Below, piece by piece: positions 653 through 63,782 of a DNA stretch of 63,782 nucleotides. Position numbers and translations under genes: made by a program. Source of the stretch: Stylophora pistillata (taxonomy: Eukaryota); the NCBI RefSeq assembly GCF_002571385.2, contig NW_019218399.1:42337-106118 (forward strand), given 5' to 3'. The notes beneath the pieces are model-generated. The model saw nothing but the letters and a program-made list of their open reading frames with translations, was not told where the DNA came from and ran no database searches. Numbering within the stretch: the first letter of the stretch is position 1; each line of letters begins with the position of its first letter.

Positions 653-1319
653 NNNNNNNNNNNNNNNNNNNNNNNNNNNNNNNNNNNNNNNNNNNNNNNN
701 NNNNNNNNNNNNNNNNNNNNNNNNNNNNNNNNNNNNNNNNNNNNNNNNNNNNNNNNNNNNNNNNNNNNNNNNNNNNNNNNNNNNNNNNNNNNNNNNNNNN
801 NNNNNNNNNNNNNNNNNNNNNNNNNNNNNNNNNNNNNNNNNNNNNNNNNNNNNNNNNNNNNNNNNNNNNNNNNNNNNNNNNNNNNNNNNNNNNNNNNNNN
901 NNNNNNNNNNNNNNNNNNNNNNNNNNNNNNNNNNNNNNNNNNNNNNNNNNNNNNNNNNNNNNNNNNNNNNNNNNNNNNNNNNNNNNNNNNNNNNNNNNNN
1001 NNNNNNNNNNNNNNNNNNNNNNNNNNNNNNNNNNNNNNNNNNNNNNNNNNNNNNNNNNNNNNNNNNNNNNNNNNNNNNNNNNNNNNNNNNNNNNNNNNNN
1101 NNNNNNNNNNNNNNNNNNNNNNNNNNNNNNNNNNNNNNNNNNNNNNNNNNNNNNNNNNNNNNNNNNNNNNNNNNNNNNNNNNNNNNNNNNNNNNNNNNNN
1201 NNNNNNNNNNNNNNNNNNNNNNNNNNNNNNNNNNNNNNNNNNNNNNNNNNNNNNNNNNNNNNNNNNNNNNNNNNNNNNNNNNNNNNNNNNNNNNNNNNNN
1301 NNNNNNNNNNNNNNNNNNN
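653..1319. other. Assembly gap (run of N)
   Basis: Continuous N bases. Confidence 0.99.
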
Positions 1320-24643: not shown

Positions 24644-24757
24644 ACTGTTAAGTATGTATGATGCGCGATCCTCGCAGTAGATAGCGCTATCTATGCAATA
24701 GCGAAAAATCAGACCTGAAAAAAATATATGAACTTCATATATTCATTGTAACTGTTA
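24644..24757. mobile_element. Short SINE-like insertion, same family as 57820-57969
   Basis: gatcctcgcagta...gcaatagcgaaa...atatatgaacttcatatattca, flanked by ACTGTTA direct repeats (24644-24650, 24751-24757). Confidence 0.5.
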
Positions 24758-52174: not shown

Positions 52175-55100
52175 ATGCCTTCAGAATTGGTAAGGAGATT
52201 TTTTACAGAGATTAGCTTTATGAAGCTTTTCCATCATTCTTCGTTTTAGACATACTATTATAGCTAGGCAAAGTTTACTTCCAATGAATAACGTCGCGTT
52301 GCTTTGCTTTTATCCATAGTCGATATCAAAGCTTTATCGCGCACATTTAAGCCAACTGTTCCACTTTTACCTCATTCTATGGTTGCCAATCGTGATCAGC
52401 AGTAAGATTCTTGGTGATAAATGCGTCACTTCCATTCAAAGTTTTAGTCTCTTGAAACAAGCATACAAAGTTTTCAGGGTGCGGGATATGTTTTCCTGTT
52501 ACTACCTCTGCAAAGGAGATGAGATCTGTCAGAGCATAAACTTCAACAAAGTCAGCAGCTTTTGCGAGATGAACAACCGAACACGTTTGGTCAGACCGTA
52601 CCATTTCGTGCCGAATTCAAACATCATTTACTTGGAAAACCCATTTCGAGGTAATTTAAATTGATTTTTAACTCAGAGTATTTTTTTTGTCTTAAACTCC
52701 TCTCAAAAGAAAAGCAAAGCGGCCGGTTTTTTTTTTTTTTTTCATTTTTTTAATGTATCTGCTTTTAAGTTTACCAGGTTATTAAGTTCCCTGTCACAGG
52801 ATGTTTTCGCAGCTGAATAAGAACTCCTTTCAGTTGAACGCACCCTTAATAATAGGCATCGAGGAGTAAAACATTTTTTTCGTCCATCAAAGTTCATGTT
52901 TTTTTATCTAAAAGGTGCTCACTGTTCTGTTTTTATTCCGTACGATGTTCCATTTCAATTTTTGGAAACTTTTAGGACTCAATATAATGCATAATTTCCC
53001 ACCGTAAATGGCAAATGGTAAACATTAAAACTAAACAGAAATAAACATTTTCCAATTTTGATCCGTAATGTTTAAGTTGAATGTTAATGTATATGTGTGT
53101 GTGTGTGTTTTTTTTTTCAAACCTTTCCCATCGCTGCAATATGGTTTTTAGTTTATTTCGGCTTGAGAAAGGAGGACCTCTCTTTCATGACCGACACTCA
53201 TTTCCACGCGACCTTTTTCAACTAAGACCGTCATTCGCTTTCTCAATAAAACGATCTGAATAAATACAGATTCTTCCAATAACAGCTGGGTTCAAATAAG
53301 TGGCTAAACGTATCATCTACAAAGCTCATGAAAGAGGGATCTCATATATCCAAATTTAAACTGACTGGTTCTCGTACGAAATATATCGTCTTTTGGAAAA
53401 ACTTCTGTCTTTTGCCTGAGAAAGAGGATACCCTGTTAATCTATTCCTAAATAAATAAGATGCCTGACATTATTTTTCGACTCTAAAGTAACTGAATATA
53501 AATCATGTTACCATCACCTTTAGAATTTTGGATACAATACTATCATTGACAGAAACGTGTTTATGTATAAGTAATCGAAGGGAGCTGAGTAAAATTAAGA
53601 ATTTATACCACGCGTGTCCGAAGAAGTTTTTTTTTTACCTGCTAAAGAGCATTCGCTATCGATAAATCATGATGCTTTTCGAAAAAATTAAGCCTCTTTC
53701 AATATTCTCATTTTCAAGTCATTTTGCCATTAGCAATTACCAAATTTGATGAAAAATGCCCTCTGTTTTAGCCAGTAAGCATGTAGTAACTTTGCCCCCT
53801 ATTTATAAAAATAAAGGAAAGCCAGCCCATTCCCTGAATTGCGAGTATTTTAACGGAAAAGTATGCTGCAGAAACTAAATAACTTTTCTCTTCAACATCA
53901 CAAAATTCACAGATGAAGTTATGACACTAAATAGATAACTCTCACCAAGGTAGGATTTCCAACCAGATCCGAATTGGCTTTCTGCGTGGATCTAACAGAT
54001 CGATTTCCAAATTGGATTTTTTAGTAGAATTTACGAGTAATTCGATTTTGGTTTGGATTCGGACTGAGAATTGAAATAAAAGCTCAGCGGTTTTCAACAT
54101 CGTCTTCTTAACATTGAAACAGTTGAAAAATGAGATAAGATAATCAAGTGTTAGCTTCGAGTGTCCTTCTTATGAAAATGAATTGTAATTTATCATATAA
54201 CCGGCCATGGTTCAATTACTTTACAGCTTTCCTTGGTTCGTCACCAGCACTCCCAGTTTCATCATGCCAAGAGATTAAAAACGCCTCCGAAGGACTGGCC
54301 CCTAATGGTAGATATTGGCTAGCCTCGATAGGAGCTGGAGACCAACCTTTCAGCGCTTATTGCGATATGGATAGAGAAGGTTAGATCTACTGAAGACAAT
54401 GTATGAACTTGGGGATCTTGAAAGTACTACAAAATTACTTATGTTAAACATTGATTGACGGGCTACATTGTGTCCACGAATCAGTTGACTGTTGTTGAGT
54501 AGGGGAGGGAGGGGTAAGTGCGTAGTTGCTCAGATACCGATATCGATCCCATAATTCATTGCAGTTTGCGTTGGTTTCTGTAGCGTGAACCCGCAAGGAG
54601 CTGTCTATCACATTTAAGTTAGTTTCTCTCTTTTAAGGGAGTTTAGTGAATAAATCAGAATAAAATCAAAATCAGAATAAGTTGTTTTCTCTAATAAAGA
54701 AACACAAACCAATCTTCTTTCGTGAACCTTTGCTGATTTAGTCATTTTCTTTCCAGTGATTGTAGAGTGTCCTAAGAACCTATGCCAGAATGGAGCAGAG
54801 TGTGACTTCTACGGGAGGGGTCAGTACAAGTGTCGATGCTTACCAGGGTATACTGGGAAGCATTGTGAAATTGGTAAGTTGTTTTCTTTACGATTGTTCA
54901 CACAAGTATGAATCTGATGATATAACTTACTCGGTCAGCACTTATTTAAGCTGAGAGCAAATGCACAGAAGAACTACTTTGTTTTTGACAACACAGACAA
55001 ATAATTGTCAACTTAAATCATAAGTTTTTTTTTTTCCGGACAAAACTCAAAAGCAGTAATTTCTTTTTCCGCATCGCTCTTCTGTCACTCGCAATTCTTT

Positions 55101-56664
55101 GCTAAAAACAGAACTACAATTTATCCCTGTTATTCGTCGAGTTGATAGCGATTATCAATTTGCTAAAAATTGCAATTCTCAAAGTAAAATATGAGGTTGT
55201 AAGGGTTTGAATAAGCTTACGCCCAACCAACTGTCACAATTTGTATATTCCCTAGAATGGTCACCTCTTTAATTAAAATCTAACAATTTCCCCGGGATTA
55301 ACGGAAGAAAGTGGAAAGCAGCACTTTGTTAATAATCTTCAAGTTAGCAAACCAATGTTCACGAAAAGTAATTTTTATATTTTTTTATAAATTGTGCATA
55401 ACCAATCTTAGATCAATGTAGAATACTACTGAAGAAATGGTTTGTCAAACAGCTGCTTTTGAAGCTTTTCTTTTGTCATTGGAGATCAATGTAGTATACT
55501 ACTAAAGAAATGGTTTGTCAAACAGCTGCTTTTGGTGCTTTTTTTTTTGTCATTGGAGATCAATGTAGTATACTACTGAAGAAATGGTTTGTCAAACAGC
55601 TGCTTTTGATGCTTTTATTTTGTCATTGGAGATCAATGTAGTATACTACTAAAGAAATGGTTTGTCAAACAGCTGCTTTTGATGATTTTTCTTTTTTTGT
55701 CATTGGACGCAGATATTGATGAATGCTCCAGTAATCCGTGTGTGAATGGAGGTACATGTATCAATTTGGTAAATGGTTACAATTGCTCCTGCACGTCATC
55801 ATTGACTGGCAAACATTGTGAACTCGGCATGGGTAAGTTGATGCTTTCAACTTTCCGTCTACATTGTAGGAATCCAGTATTATGCTGCGCTATCGACGAT
55901 TTTAAAATGTGAGGAGTTGAAGGGGGGCTGTGCTAAGATCCCTCCTCTTTCATTTTTCCCTGCTCCTCTCTCCTTTCTCCCATGCCTCGGTAGAGACAGT
56001 TGCTCTCGCTAAATACGCCACTAATCCATAGGGTGCCACCCACCTTCTCTTCCCTTCTGTGTTATGTTTATTTCGCAGAGGGAAAGTTGTTCTCCTTTTC
56101 AAGTCGATGAAAAGGTAAAAAAAGAAATAATTGCCGTACAATTTTAGGGGAAGATGGCAAATTACCCCTTCTAGAAGCTTTCCACACACAAAAAAAAACC
56201 TTATCTGTAAAATGTGCGCATAAAAAGACCGTGAAGTTGCGAGCAATATCGATTAAGCAGCAGGATTATGGGGAAAGAAATTGCTTTACTTTGCAGGGGC
56301 AGAGTGCAGCTCGTACTTATTCGACACAGAAGAAGACCGTAGCATAAAGTATCGAGCTGCAGGGTCAAAAAAATGTGACAGTGCCTTTTCCGGAGGCTGG
56401 TACCGCTTTAACAGCACTGCTGGCTCAAAAATGCCTACATCTTGTGTGCCAAAGAGTATGTGTAACACAGACGCACCCGGCTGGCTCAGTGGGAATCACC
56501 CCACACTAAAGGAAGGAATTGTCACTCGCACTGCTTGTTTTCATTGGAGCACTAATTGCTGCAACTGGAAGGTTATCATCAATGTGAGGAACTGCGGAGA
56601 ATTTTTCGTTTACAAGCTTGTGAAACCAAACGTATGCACTCTTCGTTATTGCGTAACCACGTGA
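52175..56664 (+). CDS. Secreted mosaic protein: PAN/apple + FReD/COLFI-like N-subdomain + EGF + Ca-binding EGF + UMOD/GP2/OIT3-like D8C, about 367 aa
   Basis: Exons 52175-52189 (start tentative), 52320-52650, 54227-54379, 54757-54873, 55713-55832, 56297-56664. Hydrophobic [15 protein letters not shown]; CYYLC...CQSINF...CEMNN (PAN); SCQEIK...NGRYWL...YCDM; CQNGAEC; [16 protein letters not shown]; GWYRF...MPTSC...CNTDAPGWL...CFHW...CC...VRNCG.FFVYKL...RYC (D8C). Confidence 0.85.
55411..55707. repeat. Minisatellite, 4 copies of a 73-74 bp unit
   Basis: gatcaatgtag...gtcattgga units start at 55411, 55484, 55558 and 55631. Confidence 0.95.
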
Positions 56665-57808
56665 AACCATAGTTCGAAGGGAGGTTCTTGGTCAGCTAAC
56701 CCAACATATCTTTCGTATATGTCTGTGTTGGTTTTTTTTTATTGATTGATTGTTTAATTTTTCTTTCACCTGACCGTGCCATACGTTTAACAGAACATCA
56801 ATCAAGTTGAACTGACGGACCAATCGAAATTTCTGATTAACTTATTCATTTGCTCATTGGCTGGTTTGAATGGGGCCCTGTAAAAATAATTATAATGCCT
56901 GAGCATAACACTGGGAGTTATGCTCCCATTTCTTTGCGAAATGTGCGTAACCAGTGCAGAGAAGATGCAGCCGAAGACGGCCGGCCTACGGTTTGAGTAA
57001 ACATTAGGGATTAAGGTTGTGCTCGGGTAGAGGGCTAACGACATAAACTGCGCTATTAAATTAAATTTTTTGTCCTTAAATTTTTACCGGTTTCCCAACT
57101 GTCTCCTCTTTTATATTTATGGTGGAACTGACAATATTTCATTGCAGAAACGAACGCACAATCGTCAATTTTGTTTTGTTTTATTCGTTTTCGTTTTTCT
57201 TCTTTTTCTGTAGATTTTGTAAATAGAACAGTTTTAAATGCGAAAAAAAAATCTTAAGTTCGAAAATCATCTTTACCCCATGTTACTAAACGTACACAGC
57301 CTAATGAAGCAACACTCATCAGATAGGGAAAGGTACTTACCTGATCTACACCCATTTTTGCAATCAAAATTTGCGTGAAGGTCCACCATTAAGGACGATG
57401 GTAGCTAATGACGTATATGGATGTTACTGCACCATAATGGAACGTTGGATGTTTCATGATTAGACAGTGTAAAAGAACCTAAAGACGCAATCAAAAATCC
57501 CTTGAGTTTTCGGTTCCTAACGTGAGTTTCAAAACCGATGCAGTCTCTTCTGTTTGTTATTAATTTTACTTATCGACAATTAAAGCTTTTCGTCGTCCAT
57601 GTTGATAATAAGGGACCTTAACCAGTCAGGAGGCGGAGGAAGACGTCGATAAAAAAACATGAACTTCCATTTTTAGTGAGAATTTCGCATACGGCTGGAC
57701 GTATTTACCATTTACCGCGATGCTACACCTTTACTTCAGCTGTTAGGGCATAACATATGCGAGCAGCGTAAAATTGAAAAGGGAAATTTGCTGTTATTAT
57801 TTTCATCG

Positions 57809-57980
57809 TTAACTCTTCTTACGTATATGTGCACGATCCTTCGCAGTAAAGCACTATTTAAGCAATAGTGAAATTTCCCTATTGCTTAAATAGTGCTTTA
57901 GTGCGAAGGATCGTGCACATATACGTTTCATAACCGCAGTTCACATATATGTATTTCATATGTTTGTTATTAACTCTTCT
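57809..57980. mobile_element. Hairpin-shaped short insertion with 11-bp TSD
   Basis: 106-bp palindrome 57821-57926 (2 mismatches, no loop) plus a tail, between TTAACTCTTCT direct repeats at 57809-19 and 57970-80. Confidence 0.8.
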
Positions 57981-58004
57981 GTTTTCTATGGCGCGTTTTT
58001 AGTG

Positions 58005-58660
58005 TCAAAATTCAAAACCTCGTGTCGGACTTGCTATTTTTCTATTCAAACTTCCTGTTTGACATTTCAGATACACTATGTGTTTACTGAAACATCCGTT
58101 GTTTCAGTTCAAAGCAATATTTCTTCGATTCAGTCATGCTGTTTTTCTATTGAAACGTGCGATCCTTCGTTTTAAAAGTGTTTTTCTACTACCCAAACAT
58201 TCAGTCGTCTAATTCAAACGTGCTATTGTGCATTTCAAATTTTCAATCTCGCAATTCAAAATAGTCATTTCCGCAAGTAAAAATGCTATCCTTCTATTCC
58301 AATATGCAATTCTTTACCGCAAACCTGCTACTCGTCAATTCAAGTACACTATTCGCCAGTTCAAACAGGCTTTTCGTCGAAAGAAACACGCAATCCTTCA
58401 TTTTGAAACAATCGTTCTGCAATTCAAACACTCTGCTCTTCAATTCAAACCGGCAATTCTTTCATTCCAACGCTTAATCTTTTAGTTCAGATCTGCTGTT
58501 CGACTATGGAGACATCCGGTCGTTTAGTCTGGTAACCCTATTCATCACTTCAAATATTCAACTCCTTTTCCAAACATTCAATTATTCAATGCGGACATGA
58601 CACTCGTCATTCCAATACGCAATCCTTCGATTCAAACATTCAAACTTTCATCGCAAACAC
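58005..58660 (+). repeat. Degenerate 21-bp-period subterminal array (core ATTCAAAC)
   Basis: Cores at 58211, 58232, 58253, 58295, 58337, 58358, 58400, 58421, 58442, 58463 and 58484 are spaced by multiples of 21. Confidence 0.8.
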
Positions 58661-58778
58661 GCTGTCCTTCGTCGTAACCTGGAAACTAGCCCGGCCACCC
58701 ATGCGTATTAGGGAGAAAGACGAAAAAAAGGCGGAAATCTTAAAATTTGTTGCAAATTTCTAGACGGATTGAGTTCTT

Positions 58779-60717
58779 ATGCTCAAAATGGCTGTAACAG
58801 TTACAGAGCACCTAATGTTACGAGCTCTATCGTTAAAAAATGAGTTAAAAAGATTTACACAAGCGGGAAATTTAACATCAGAAACACTGGACTATTTACG
58901 TTATCAGTCGGAGATGCTTTATGAACATGCAGTTCGCTTGTCTCCTCTGGGTTGCGATCGTGCTTTCAACGAAATTACTCTTAAACTACGAGAAGTTTCC
59001 ATCATAATTCGCGCTCAAGATTCAGAAAAAGAACAGTGGTCGAGCTTTGGCTTGAGTAAATATTACAGTGGAAATTGTGGAAGGCAAAAGTTTGTTATTT
59101 CCCAGGAACAATTGGAATACCTTATTACAAACGGGTTTAACGCAGTCGAAATAGGTAGACGGCTAGGAGTGTCCCTGAGCACGGTCATGCGCCGTATGAT
59201 CGAGTACAGTATTGACACATCCAGACCATTTTCAGACATTACCGATGCGAATCTTTGTGAACTTATCCGGGACATCAAGAAAGAGAATATTAGAAGTGGT
59301 TACAGGATGATGTTAGGTCACCTTCGTGCAAGAGGATATCGGGTAACTCAGCTTAGGGTGCGTCAAATGATGCAAAAAGAAGATCTAGAGAGAACTGTTA
59401 CCCGGTGGATGACCACTGTACAACGACGAGCTTACTCAGTTAGTGGCCCAAATGCATTGTGGCACATTGACGGTAACCACAAGTTAATAAGGTGTGAAAT
59501 TATTATACACATCACAATTGTATTATGTGACCTCTCCTACCTTGCAAGTTTTATTGCTACCCAGCGTTATAACGTACATGCAGCCAACTACATATTTAAT
59601 TGTGTAACGATTGGAAAACTTTTAGTTCAAGATGCAAACCACTATAATAATTGTACCCATTTACTGTAAAGTTGGGAAGGATGGTGCCACATGTGCTGGA
59701 TGCCCGACACTTTTTGTTATTGATGAGTTTCTCATATTATAATTGACTAATTATTATGAAGAACGGTTTAGATAAGCCATAGATTTGCGGCTAAAAAAGT
59801 GGAGTCAATGCTAACTTTACGAAAACTATTTGTTTTATAGATGGAGAATGGTGATTCATGGCGCAATCGACGGCTATTCACGCATTCCACTATTTCTTCG
59901 CTGTTCCACCAACAACTTTGCCTCAACTGTTCTGTCTCACTTCCTCGAAGCAGTTTGCCAAAATGGATTGCCATCACGAGTACGTTCGGACAAGGGCGGG
60001 GAGAACGTGGACGTCTCCCTATTTATGTTGACCCACCCCAGGCGTGGTCCCGGAAGGGGAAGCATGATCGCTGGAAAAAGCGTTCACAACCAGCGAATTG
60101 AGCGACTATGGCGGGATCTTTATTTCCAAAAGACCGTAACCTTTTACCAACTTTTCTGTCATATGTAAGATAACAGTATCTTGGATGTGAGCAATGAAGT
60201 GCACATGTTTTTCCTGCATTACACATTTCTGCCTCGCGTGAATGAGCAACTGGACGATTTCGTCAACGGATGGATCAACCACGGCCTCTCATCCGCCCAC
60301 AATAGAACCCCAAGACAGCTTTGGATTTGGGGGATGCAACAGAGTGCAGCTTCGTGCACTACTGTTTCGGAAGAAATGTTTGGGGTAAGCCATTACTTTA
60401 CCATTGATTTTCAGTTGAAATGCCCCCCACAGAAAAGTTGAATTCTTCAACAATTTCATCTTGTTACTTATTTCTGTCAAAAGGAAGATTTTCAGGGGTA
60501 TGGTATAGATTGGACAGGACCCTTACCTGATGAAGAACACGATGCGCTACTTCAACCTGATGGAGAGGTTGTTGAAGTACCAGCCACTCTTACGATGGAT
60601 CAACGCAAGACACAGGTGCTTGCCGCAGAAATTAATCCACTTCAACAAAGTGACAGTTATGGGATTGATTTATACTTAAAAACAGTTACTTTAGAAGAAA
60701 GGTTAATGTTAGAATAG
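58779..60717 (+). pseudogene. IS3-like (rve/DDE) integrase-transposase, 3 exons, one nonsense codon
   Basis: Exons 58779-59491, 59841-60384, 60484-60717. HTH (EIGRRLGVSLSTVMRR), IS3-type SGYRMMLGHLRARG, DDE core [44 protein letters not shown]. In-frame TAA at 60166-68 (HM*DNSILD, probably E). Confidence 0.88.
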
Positions 60718-61788
60718 AACATAAATCATCTTTTCCATTATGTCTGGCAGTAACTGTGCAGTGTATACAACAACAACAGTACACAAGAGTTATTTATTTG
60801 GGAAAGACCTGAAACTGTTCATAATTTACATCCATCTGCCTTTGTTATAAGCTGATATTACCTCTGATCAAGACTCTTAAAAGTTACATTTTATAATTAT
60901 GCATTCATCCCAAGTTTCCTGTATGCAGCTTAGAATATAGCAGAGTTCAAAACCGATCAGTTTGATCCTTCATAGCAAAACTTACTTTTGTGGGAATCAC
61001 TCCTCATAAAGTTTAACCTAACAAAGAACTTTGATATCTGAGATAACTATAACCTAAAAGTGTGCTTATAGCACACAAAACAACATTAGATAACAACTAG
61101 CAAGGGGAGAGGTGCTATGAGAAGAATTGGATGTCCTGTTGATTTCAAAGCATTTTGAACTGTGCTGAGTCAATCATGTTGAACACATACATGTAAAGTT
61201 CTTTGAGGACTGCCACTTCTGTCTCACTTCTCTTTTCCCCCAGTAGGTTGTTACCTTAGTTTGAAACAAACAATTATTTGTCATCAGAACACAACAGTAT
61301 CCATCTCCAGTTCAGGAAACTACGTGTAACAGTAAATTGCAAGATGCCGTACTGACAGCAACTTTCAAAACACAACAATGAATTGAAACAACTGTGACTA
61401 AAACAAAACACAAAAAAAATATATCGCATTGTCAAAGGCCAAAACAAATACAGTTTCGTATTTTCCTGTTAGAAAATGAGAGATCATGTAGTAGGCTGCT
61501 AATTGGGTGCTTTACATTTACTGCTAATTACCTTTTATGGTAAATATAATTTATCAATAAATTTTAAATCTAAATGCTACATGCAAAACTCTGTCAAGTA
61601 TAGGAAGAAATAGCAAGGACACTTAATTTCATCTGTGGAAGTTACATGATTGGGATAAGATCAAATCACAAATTTAAACTTATATGCAAACTTGTTTGTT
61701 AACATTACACATAAGGCATAAAGAAACTCCAAGTTTTACATTTGACATGACTATGTGAGAAATATATGGAATACTCCTTTCTACAAAT

Positions 61789-63546
61789 TTAAATCATTCC
61801 AAAAAAGGCACCAGCAAAAGCATAGTCATACAAATTGTGTAGTTCTTGAACTTGTAAAAGTGGGCTGGTTAATGATCCTCTTGGAATGGTGAGGCAGTTT
61901 GTACATGTGTTAGCTCTTGGTAAGAAATTACCACCAAAGACCTCAGCAAATACAATTTAGGGATGTGACGAAAACCCAAGCACTGGCTCTTCATCACCGG
62001 TGGTGAACTGCAGGATGTGTTCCAACGTCAAGTCTTCTCTTCTTCCACCTAGGAAAGTTAGGTTACCAAAAAAAGACTGCTACATGTCAGCTGCTGAAAA
62101 AATGTCTGTTTGTTATCACAACATTTTACTAATTTTGGAAAAATGTTAAAAATTTCATATTTTAAGATGGTTCCTGTAAATAAAATGCACTTACTTGCAA
62201 CTTCTCTTAAGTACTTAATAAAGATGCTGTAAGCTTCTCCTTCAAACTTTCTGCTGTTGGTGCCTTCCTCACTGCATGAAGTCAGGCTCTAGAAGTGATG
62301 TTAACTGCTTTAGTGTTAAAGTGGCCTTTTCTACTTTTCGGAAGAGATGCATTAGAAGAGTTATTTCTTTTGCAACCTATGTGAAATGAATGAGTAATAA
62401 ATGATTTTATCATCTAAGAGATATGTTCTGATATGTTAACATAAATAAACCATTTCCAGTACTTGGCACGAGCATGGATACATATTGCTAGCTACCATGC
62501 AAAAATTCCAAGACTTCCCCCGAGTTGTATGCTTCACATTAAGTTTCCTCTAATTTCTTCAGCTCAAAACAATCACCTGAGTGAATTTGTCTTAGTATGA
62601 TGGTCAACAAGGACAGCACACGTTATCAAACCTGCTGCGATCTCATATTAATTCCCTTCTTGGTGTAAAAATTTGGAATATTCCTGTCCATATACTAAGT
62701 TCCCTGACTTTCCCATGTCCTTGACCAAAAGAAAAAAACTTCCTGACATTTTCCTGACTCATCACAAATCTGTTAAATACTACCATGGATGATGGACTTC
62801 AAATTGTTCAAATACTATATTAGAAAAACTATATAAAACTGTTGAAAAGAACAAACCTGGTAAACCCCAAGCTCACTGAGACCCTTTCGAATTGCAAGCA
62901 TACAAGGAGAAGGATTGACACCCATAAAGATTTCCTGTCATAATTCTTCTGGTATAAATCTGGGAAGTTTTCCATTCAGCAACATGCTAAGTGCTACCAA
63001 AAGAAAAAATGTTATTTGGAATAAATGGATAAAAAAATGACAATTTCCAGATATCCTACTTGCATAAGAGTTTTTAAGCATAATCAGTTGACTGATTATA
63101 CATCAAATAGCTGAATTCTGGGCTGAATCCAAAATCCAAAGAGACAACATTTGGAACAAATAATTATTACCATGGAACACAACAACGTATACATACAGCA
63201 CACAAACATAACACCTCTACTCAAAACATGAAGTGGAAAACTCACACAGACTCTCACAATAAGGAAGACTATACTTTCAATTTAGCCATGAGACAACTAC
63301 AGGTTCAGCTCACCCACCTTCACATAAGATTAAAGTGTGATGTTTACTGTACCACTAGAAATTATTTACTCTCATTGCCACATAACAGATGCTAATCATT
63401 AAACTGCAAAACTTACCAAAGATAACTGCAACTGTATGGCAATCTTTTTCCTGGTTCTCCTTTACACCATCATCAAACAATTTCTCCTTGATTTCTCTCA
63501 AAATTAGCAGGAAGAATTCTTTTCTAGGTCCACCTAAGTCCACCGC
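61789..63546 (-). pseudogene. HECT-domain E3 ubiquitin ligase-like gene (G2E3-like), disrupted; 5' exons not located
   Basis: Minus-strand exons ~63546-63417 (AVDLGGPRKEFF), 62993-62857 (TGA at 62938-40), 62376-62195 (frameshift near 62275) and 62048-61789 (ILQFTTG..EEPVLGF, TAA at 61957-59, LPRANTCTNCLTIP with the catalytic Cys, ending AFFGMI*). Confidence 0.82.
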
Positions 63547-63782
63547 TTTCCAAGTGTGATCAGAAAAAGAAAGAAGCATACGAAAGCTCATACAGTCAAA
63601 TGACCAGACATTTTAAGCATAATATCATATCTCTACATCAAGCAAGGTCTCTTATTGTCAGAAATAAATGCAAGCTAGGGTAGTACTTGTTTCAAACACC
63701 CCATATCAAAATTGTGATCCAGGCATATCTACAGGTCCTATTAATGGTGAAAAAAAAACAACAACAACTCGGGTATTAAATT

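What the first reader, a model, noticed from the sequence alone, without database searches (positions are those of the whole stretch)
57987..63782. DNA transposon pairing an IS3-like integrase with a convergent HECT ubiquitin ligase
Seen: a spliced DDE integrase (+) and a spliced HECT gene (-) end about 1.07 kb apart. Both have few disabling lesions (1 stop; 2 stops + 1 frameshift), consistent with arriving and decaying together as one element. The HECT retains DLGGPRKEFF, the catalytic ANTC cysteine and a near-terminal FFG. Known: IS3EU elements carry a second gene that, to my knowledge, has no established function. Inference: a transposon-encoded E3 ligase may degrade host silencing or immune factors, or regulate the transposase, and may account for many G2E3-like annotations in aquatic animals.
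Basis: partly seen in the sequence, partly recalled or inferred. Interest (0 to 1): 0.72.

Follow-up and report, generated by a model that had tools for sequence, protein, structure and literature searches.

The report
Transposon carrying a stripped-down ubiquitin ligase
This is a decayed cut-and-paste transposon, cut off by the window's end, in what is likely a coral genome; beside its transposase lies a ubiquitin-ligase gene that likely travels with it and lacks the part such enzymes normally use to grip their partner enzyme, so intact copies would have to pass on ubiquitin by an unknown route.

Summary
Observation confirmed: a three-exon DDE transposase (+, one stop) and four HECT exons (−, two stops, one frameshift) converge, stops 1,071 bp apart. 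Position 57987 is an IS3EU/GingerRoot left end; the right end and target-site duplication lie beyond the window. Among related transposase loci, 28 of 37 with ≥2.5 kb downstream (17 of 23 families) carry a convergent HECT, against 1 of 28 upstream; 15 TIR-bounded relatives enclose both genes. This scan has noted the pair before in at least seven other genomes; my searches found no paper on it. New here: this HECT belongs to a clade (corals, molluscs, crinoid, hemichordate) lacking a clean 74-residue block that maps on the E2-binding small subdomain of E6AP, while keeping the HECT fold (model pLDDT 94.6) and the catalytic cysteine (67 of 71). Most other cargo HECTs keep the block. Relatives add a ubiquitin-like domain and a C2HC finger, a likely substitute route for ubiquitin. 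Limits: no short-HECT element was seen with both ends, transposase and HECT distances do not correlate, 0 of 20 named relatives are called G2E3, and ligase activity and targets are untested.

The parts
57981..57986 (+). Candidate left copy of the 6-bp target-site duplication (GTTTTC); partner copy outside the window
   Evidence: Sequence; 6-bp TSDs in 11 of 15 TIR-bounded relatives; not testable for this copy
57987..58010 (+). Left terminal inverted repeat, begins TATGG
   Evidence: 20 of 24 bases identical to the TIR of L072, 19 of 24 to L035/L045; top matrix hit in the window
58006..58670 (+). Degenerate 21-bp subterminal repeat array, likely transposase binding sites
   Evidence: Autocorrelation 0.46-0.48 at periods 21 and 42 against a maximum of 0.345 in 200 shuffles; contig depth far above the flank in two DNA runs
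58788..59491 (+). Transposase exon 1 (HTH region, first catalytic Asp)
59841..60384 (+). Transposase exon 2 (second Asp, Glu; stop at 60166-60168)
   Evidence: PF24764 E 3e-43
60484..60717 (+). Transposase exon 3 with stop
   Evidence: homologous exon in L001 and L078
60754..61788 (-). Likely 3' untranslated region of the HECT gene; minus-strand AATAAA at 60793
   Evidence: minus-strand RNA reads at depth about 2 in run X21, strand calibrated on the upstream host gene
61789..62048 (-). HECT last exon: C-lobe, catalytic Cys 61905-61903, stop lesion 61959-61957
62195..62376 (-). HECT exon: end of N-lobe and hinge, 2-base frameshift
   Evidence: P0010 and P0019 read through this place
62857..62993 (-). 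HECT exon holding the junction where the 74-residue E2-binding block is absent (62928-62906); stop lesion 62940-62938
63417..63545 (-). HECT exon with DLGGPRKEFF; upstream exons lie beyond the window
57820..57969 (.). Separate 150-bp hairpin insertion with an 11-bp duplication; not part of the transposon
   Evidence: 53-nt arms, 96% complementary; absent in contigs of runs X5 and X3 (joint 57808 to 57970)

Best explanation
The stretch is the left 5.8 kb of a decayed IS3EU/GingerRoot cut-and-paste transposon, and the convergent HECT gene is likely its own cargo, from a clade that lacks the E2-binding subdomain but keeps the catalytic cysteine and is predicted to keep the HECT fold. Shown: left TIR, subterminal repeats, DDE transposase, the gene pair in many relatives, the missing block. 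Inferred from family knowledge: the transposase binds the TIRs and 21-bp repeats, excises the element and makes 6-bp duplications. Inferred from conservation: intact copies still form a cysteine-ubiquitin thioester (about 0.65). Proposed mechanism, untested: the N-terminal C2HC finger and ubiquitin-like domain seen in relatives hold the charged E2 by its ubiquitin, in place of the lost docking site, and the ligase marks a nuclear host factor that restrains the element (about 0.35) or the transposase itself (about 0.2). This copy is dead: both genes carry lesions.
For: Convergent HECT C-lobe in 28 of 37 loci with at least 2.5 kb downstream, 1 of 28 upstream, 0 of 80 reversed sequences; 17 of 23 transposase families. 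15 of 32 loci of 6 kb or more gave TATGG..CCATA pairs, all 15 with a C-lobe inside, 11 with exact 6-bp TSD, 10 distinct insertions. The closest transposase (L078, 77%) and L076 carry a convergent HECT of the same short clade (clade support 99, FastTree). Near-identical short-clade genes sit on different chromosome-scale contigs in Antedon, Mytilus and Ptychodera. Missing block: 74 alignment columns, junction inside one exon, 53 of 54 family proteins with the short linker. The profile match to E6AP ends at residue 621 (offset fixed on C820), and E2-contact residues T656 and F690 (PMC8635412) fall in the gap; Pfam HECT positions about 79-155 have no counterpart. Model pLDDT 94.6; Z 21.3 to UBR5 (rmsd 3.6, 275 aligned), 14.8 to E6AP (rmsd 5.5, 246 of 350). 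Cys kept in 67 of 71 rows with a residue there; residue -4 is F or Y in 80 of 96. N-terminal domain folds as a ubiquitin-like beta-grasp (Z 7.2, rmsd 2.7, 78 aligned), followed by a zf_C2HC_14-like finger below Pfam's cut-off in most.
Against: No right TIR or TSD for this copy. None of the 15 TIR-bounded relatives was shown to be of the short type; most carry the block. Many long loci come from two related assemblies. In genome G001 only 1 of 5 HECT loci had a convergent transposase; two had none within more than 11 kb, and the short-type L081 none within 4.2 kb. Transposase and HECT distances do not correlate, and L001, nearly as close in transposase, carries a long-type HECT. The interior is at about flank depth in two DNA runs, so no burst of full copies is seen in this species. 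RNA depth is very low. The N-terminal domains were seen only in relatives.
Confidence: 0.8

Rival explanations
1. Same transposon and cargo, but the short HECT is not a ligase: it is a decoy or ubiquitin-binding scaffold, or uses its cysteine for another reaction such as taking ubiquitin from another E3 or removing it.
For: The subdomain that hosts the E2 site (PMC3077247) and part of the ubiquitin exosite (E6AP F665, PMC8635412) is absent.
Against: Catalytic Cys kept in 67 of 71 and the -4 aromatic in 80 of 96 across four phyla; codon positions 1-2 are more conserved than position 3 in the last exon against L076, L078, L081. This argues against a dead scaffold, not against another cysteine reaction.
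Confidence: 0.3
2. The HECT gene is a host multigene-family member or an independent mobile unit, and its place beside this transposase is chance or a one-off capture.
For: HECT loci without a nearby transposase in G001 (4 of 5); no right end in the window; no distance correlation.
Against: Same strand, side and spacing in 17 of 23 families and inside TIRs with TSDs; the nearest transposase relative has the same HECT clade in the same place.
Confidence: 0.1
3. The missing block is an artefact of gene prediction or of decay in this copy.
For: All proteins used are predictions; this copy is a pseudogene.
Against: The junction lies inside one exon in the window, L076 and L081; 53 of 54 family proteins share the short linker; the model closes it with a 5-residue loop at high confidence.
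Confidence: 0.03

Closest known systems
[quoted passage not shown]
   Same: DDE transposase without HHCC, TA.. terminus (TATGG), introns, 6-bp TSDs in relatives
   Different: Carries a HECT gene; the word HECT does not occur in the main text of either paper. GingerRoot captures are described as gene fragments, not whole conserved genes.
TET+ IS3EU families of rust fungi (PMC12730594)
   Same: TAYGG..CCRTA ends, 6-bp TSD, an enzyme gene (alpha-kinase) opposite to the transposase, cargo exchanged between lineages
   Different: Cargo is TET/JBP and alpha-kinase, not a ubiquitin ligase (one supplementary file searched, no HECT)
HECT E3 ligases (E6AP, NEDD4, UBR5, AREL1)
   Same: Two-lobed fold, GGPRxE motif, catalytic Cys, aromatic residue at -4
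   Different: Lacks the roughly 75-80 residues of the small N-lobe subdomain that hosts the E2 site; N-terminus is SAM (some), ubiquitin-like domain and C2HC finger; transposon-linked
G2E3
   Same: Divergent HECT; appears among structural neighbours (TM 0.71 by query)
   Different: G2E3 has PHD-type fingers and is placed after the chordate/echinoderm split (PMC2837046); no short-clade relative is named G2E3 (0 of 20)

Membership tests
IS3EU/GingerRoot | DDE transposase of the IS3EU type | tested here: met
   PF24764 E 3e-43; D228, D285, E322; groups with TATGG-bounded elements. Not compared with Repbase sequences.
IS3EU/GingerRoot | Terminus beginning TA (TAYGG) | tested here: met
   57987 TATGG, top matrix hit in the window
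IS3EU/GingerRoot | Paired terminal inverted repeats | not testable with these tools
   Right end beyond the window, no genome held; met in 15 relatives
IS3EU/GingerRoot | 6-bp target-site duplication | not testable with these tools
   Not visible for this copy; met in 11 of 15 relatives
HECT E3 ligase | Two-lobed HECT fold | tested here: met
   Model of relative P0038: Z 21.3 UBR5, 19.5 Rsp5, 14.8 E6AP
HECT E3 ligase | Catalytic cysteine in the C-lobe and aromatic residue at -4 | tested here: met
   Window codon 61905-61903; 67 of 71; 80 of 96
HECT E3 ligase | Small N-lobe subdomain with the E2-binding site | tested here: not met
   74-column block absent; maps on E6AP about 622-700 with T656 and F690. 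Filed as a HECT-fold variant, not a canonical HECT E3.
HECT E3 ligase | Ubiquitin thioester and ligase activity | not testable with these tools
   Needs a biochemical assay
G2E3 | N-terminal PHD-type fingers | tested here: not met
   Full-length relatives show SAM, ubiquitin-like and C2HC domains, no PHD hit; the window's own N-terminus is not visible

The most novel reading that the evidence does not exclude
IS3EU transposons of marine invertebrates spread a minimal HECT enzyme that has shed the E2-binding subdomain used by every solved HECT-E2 complex, yet remains an active cysteine ligase by recruiting ubiquitin through its own ubiquitin-like and zinc-finger modules: a new route of ubiquitin transfer, used by a transposon against host control.
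Probability: 0.35. Interest if true: 0.87.

Novelty: new variant of a known kind. Interest (0 to 1): 0.66.

Why it matters
A DNA transposon lineage that keeps a whole ubiquitin-ligase gene across many families points to a ubiquitin-based arm of the conflict between transposons and hosts, and warns that many anonymous HECT genes in marine invertebrate annotations may be transposon cargo. The short clade is a natural deletion of the E2-docking subdomain that keeps the active-site cysteine in four phyla; a simple E2-panel assay would show whether HECT chemistry can run without the textbook E2 site.

Tried and rejected
No whole genome is held, so the right end could not be read. Viral contigs hold no relative of the transposase or of the short HECT. 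A search for full-length long-type cargo proteins found none, so their names, G2E3-like or not, are unchecked. A profile of the missing block plus the next helix found no solved structure; the mapping rests on flanking matches to E6AP and on Pfam positions. No model of an E2-HECT complex was obtained, so E2 binding stays open. The careful transposase tree did not finish; the quick tree was used. In one search one HECT piece was read in the wrong frame; corrected. Rfam hits on the hairpin are miRNA models far below their cut-offs and were rejected as generic hairpin matches. Viral HECT folds match only weakly (best E 5e-6). Paper searches showed no report of HECT cargo in IS3EU or of a HECT lacking the E2 subdomain; Repbase entries and subscription papers were not searchable and may describe the second gene. 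One search did not identify the hairpin repeat.
Full report
Observation. The transposase has three GT-AG exons (58788-59491, 59841-60384, 60484-60717), 493 codons, one internal stop and a D228-D285-E322 triad; exon 2 matches Pfam rva_4 at E 3e-43. The HECT gene has four exons on the minus strand (63545-63417, 62993-62857, 62376-62195, 62048-61789) with two stops and one frameshift, and the stop codons of the two genes are 1,071 bp apart. Database proteins P0010 and P0019 join the last three exons as in this model. The window ends inside the HECT gene and no genome is held.

The left end. TATGG at 57987 is followed by a degenerate 21-bp array to about 58670 (autocorrelation 0.46-0.48; at most 0.345 in 200 shuffles). 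A matrix from 11 distinct TIRs of relatives ranks 57987 first among all positions of the window (21.3 bits, next 10.8), and the TIR of L072 matches 20 of 24 bases. Fungal IS3EU end in TAYGG..CCRTA with 6-bp TSDs (PMC12730594, passages); the superfamily has TA..TA ends and 6-bp TSDs (PMC10045372 and PMC6839031, passages). In two DNA runs from other samples the flank-to-TIR junction is present, the subterminal region has summed contig depth of 1,700-24,000 against 89 and 216 in the flank, and the interior stays near flank depth. The tool warns that depth is no copy number; it suggests many short derivatives and few full copies. The 150-bp hairpin at 57820-57969 is a separate insertion, absent in both runs.

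Is the HECT cargo? The scan kept the best 80 of 490 confirmed transposase loci in part of a metagenome collection. A C-lobe profile found a convergent HECT in 39 of 80, 28 of 37 with at least 2.5 kb downstream, 1 of 28 upstream and 0 of 80 reversed sequences; part of that profile's seed came from these loci, but a profile built only from database proteins already hit 36 of 80. Collapsed at 85% transposase identity, 17 of 23 families with a long member carry it. Of 32 loci of 6 kb or more, 15 gave TATGG..CCATA pairs; all 15 hold a C-lobe inside and 11 have an exact 6-bp TSD, two of them the same insertion. Many of these come from two related assemblies. The closest transposase, L078 (77%), has a convergent last exon of the same HECT clade. 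Against: in genome G001 only 1 of 5 HECT loci had a convergent transposase, with more than 11 kb of room in two of the others, and distances between transposases and between HECT C-lobes do not correlate (24 pairs, r 0.047, p 0.33; short, saturated regions). L001, almost as close in transposase, carries a long-type HECT. The cargo looks exchangeable between lineages, as reported for TET/JBP cargo (PMC12730594, passages).

What kind of HECT. A search of the representative library gave 510 relatives at E up to 0.001, of which 150 were listed. Named members come from molluscs, a crinoid, a hemichordate and a coral, with near-identical copies on different chromosome-scale contigs in Antedon, Mytilus and Ptychodera; 0 of 20 named are called G2E3. 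Aligned with four long-type cargo HECTs, the window and its family lack one clean block of 74 columns; the distance from the GGP motif to the catalytic Cys is 187-197 residues in 31 of 41 proteins with both motifs, against 271-289 in three long cargo HECTs. The junction lies inside one exon (62928-62906) and 53 of 54 proteins with both flanking motifs share the short linker. The family profile matches E6AP (1c4z) up to chain residue 127 and again from 289; counting from C820 these are residues 621 and 783, a span 69 residues longer than in the profile. T656 and F690 of the E2 interface and F665 of the exosite (PMC8635412, passages) lie in the gap, and the small subdomain is the one that hosts the E2 site (PMC3077247, passages). 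An AlphaFold2 model of relative P0038 (pLDDT 94.6) closes the gap with a 5-residue loop and matches HECT structures only (Z 21.3 UBR5, 19.5 Rsp5, 14.8 E6AP; next unrelated row 4.8). The short forms make one clade in a C-lobe tree (support 99, FastTree, 88 columns), with the window, L076, L078 and L081. The block was found in more than 25 other cargo loci, so the short form is likely derived. No short-type element was seen with both ends.

Mechanism. The catalytic Cys is kept in 67 of 71 rows and residue -4 is aromatic in 80 of 96, and first and second codon positions are better conserved than third in the last exon, so the C-lobe chemistry is likely under selection in intact copies. Long and short cargo share an N-terminal domain that folds as a ubiquitin-like beta-grasp (Z 7.2; most of the top 50 rows are beta-grasp), then a C2HC finger with weak zf_C2HC_14 hits, and SAM in some. 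That such fingers bind ubiquitin is recalled, not tested. My best reading is a thioester-forming ligase that holds the charged E2 through ubiquitin rather than through the lost site and acts for the element on a host restraint or on the transposase; the decoy or other-reaction rival stays at about 0.3. Raw RNA reads show minus-strand signal at depth about 2 over 60754-61765 in one run, up to an AATAAA at 60793, with strand calibrated on the upstream host gene; this is low and may come from other copies.

Novelty. The scan's index lists seven earlier findings of IS3EU with HECT in other genomes and none on a HECT lacking the E2 subdomain. Searches of the paper library gave no report of either. 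I saw passages of PMC10045372, PMC12730594 (and a term search of one supplementary file), PMC6839031, PMC11934779, PMC3077247, PMC13196369, PMC8635412, PMC2837046 and bioRxiv 2022.11.18.516873, and only the abstract and outline of bioRxiv 2025.09.05.674436, which I did not use. Repbase and subscription papers were out of reach. Verdict: a new variant of a known transposon kind; the element is ordinary in build, the cargo is unreported as far as searched, and the subdomain loss is the surprising and testable part.

Noticed in passing
window 57820-57969: 150-bp hairpin repeat (53-nt arms) with an 11-bp duplication, 17 bp left of the TIR; absent in two other samples, at enormous contig depth; other copies carry an inner segment from 57873; a weak relative lies at 24657-24706.
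   Followed up: partly
window 54726-56665: Plus-strand host gene with EGF-like exons and a uromodulin-like D8C domain (PF23283) ends about 1.3 kb before the element.
   Followed up: partly
window 55410-55695: 73-bp tandem repeat, 3.9 copies, ending just before an EGF-like exon.
   Followed up: no
L081 and G001 contigs C175, C522, C138, C1180: A bacterial MAG holds intron-containing animal HECT and IS3EU genes, so it is likely contaminated with host DNA; C1180 pairs a HECT with a transposase of another subgroup 6.3 kb away.
   Followed up: partly
ESM Atlas rows for P0177: A chordate Neuralized-HECT cluster is a close structural neighbour of both the HECT part (TM 0.84) and the ubiquitin-like part (TM 0.70); such genes, and perhaps G2E3, could descend from transposon cargo.
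   Followed up: no
L056:8936-11721: A 2.8-kb internally deleted element keeps TIRs, TSD, transposase core and only the HECT C-lobe.
   Followed up: no
window 653-1319: Assembly gap of 667 N.
   Followed up: no
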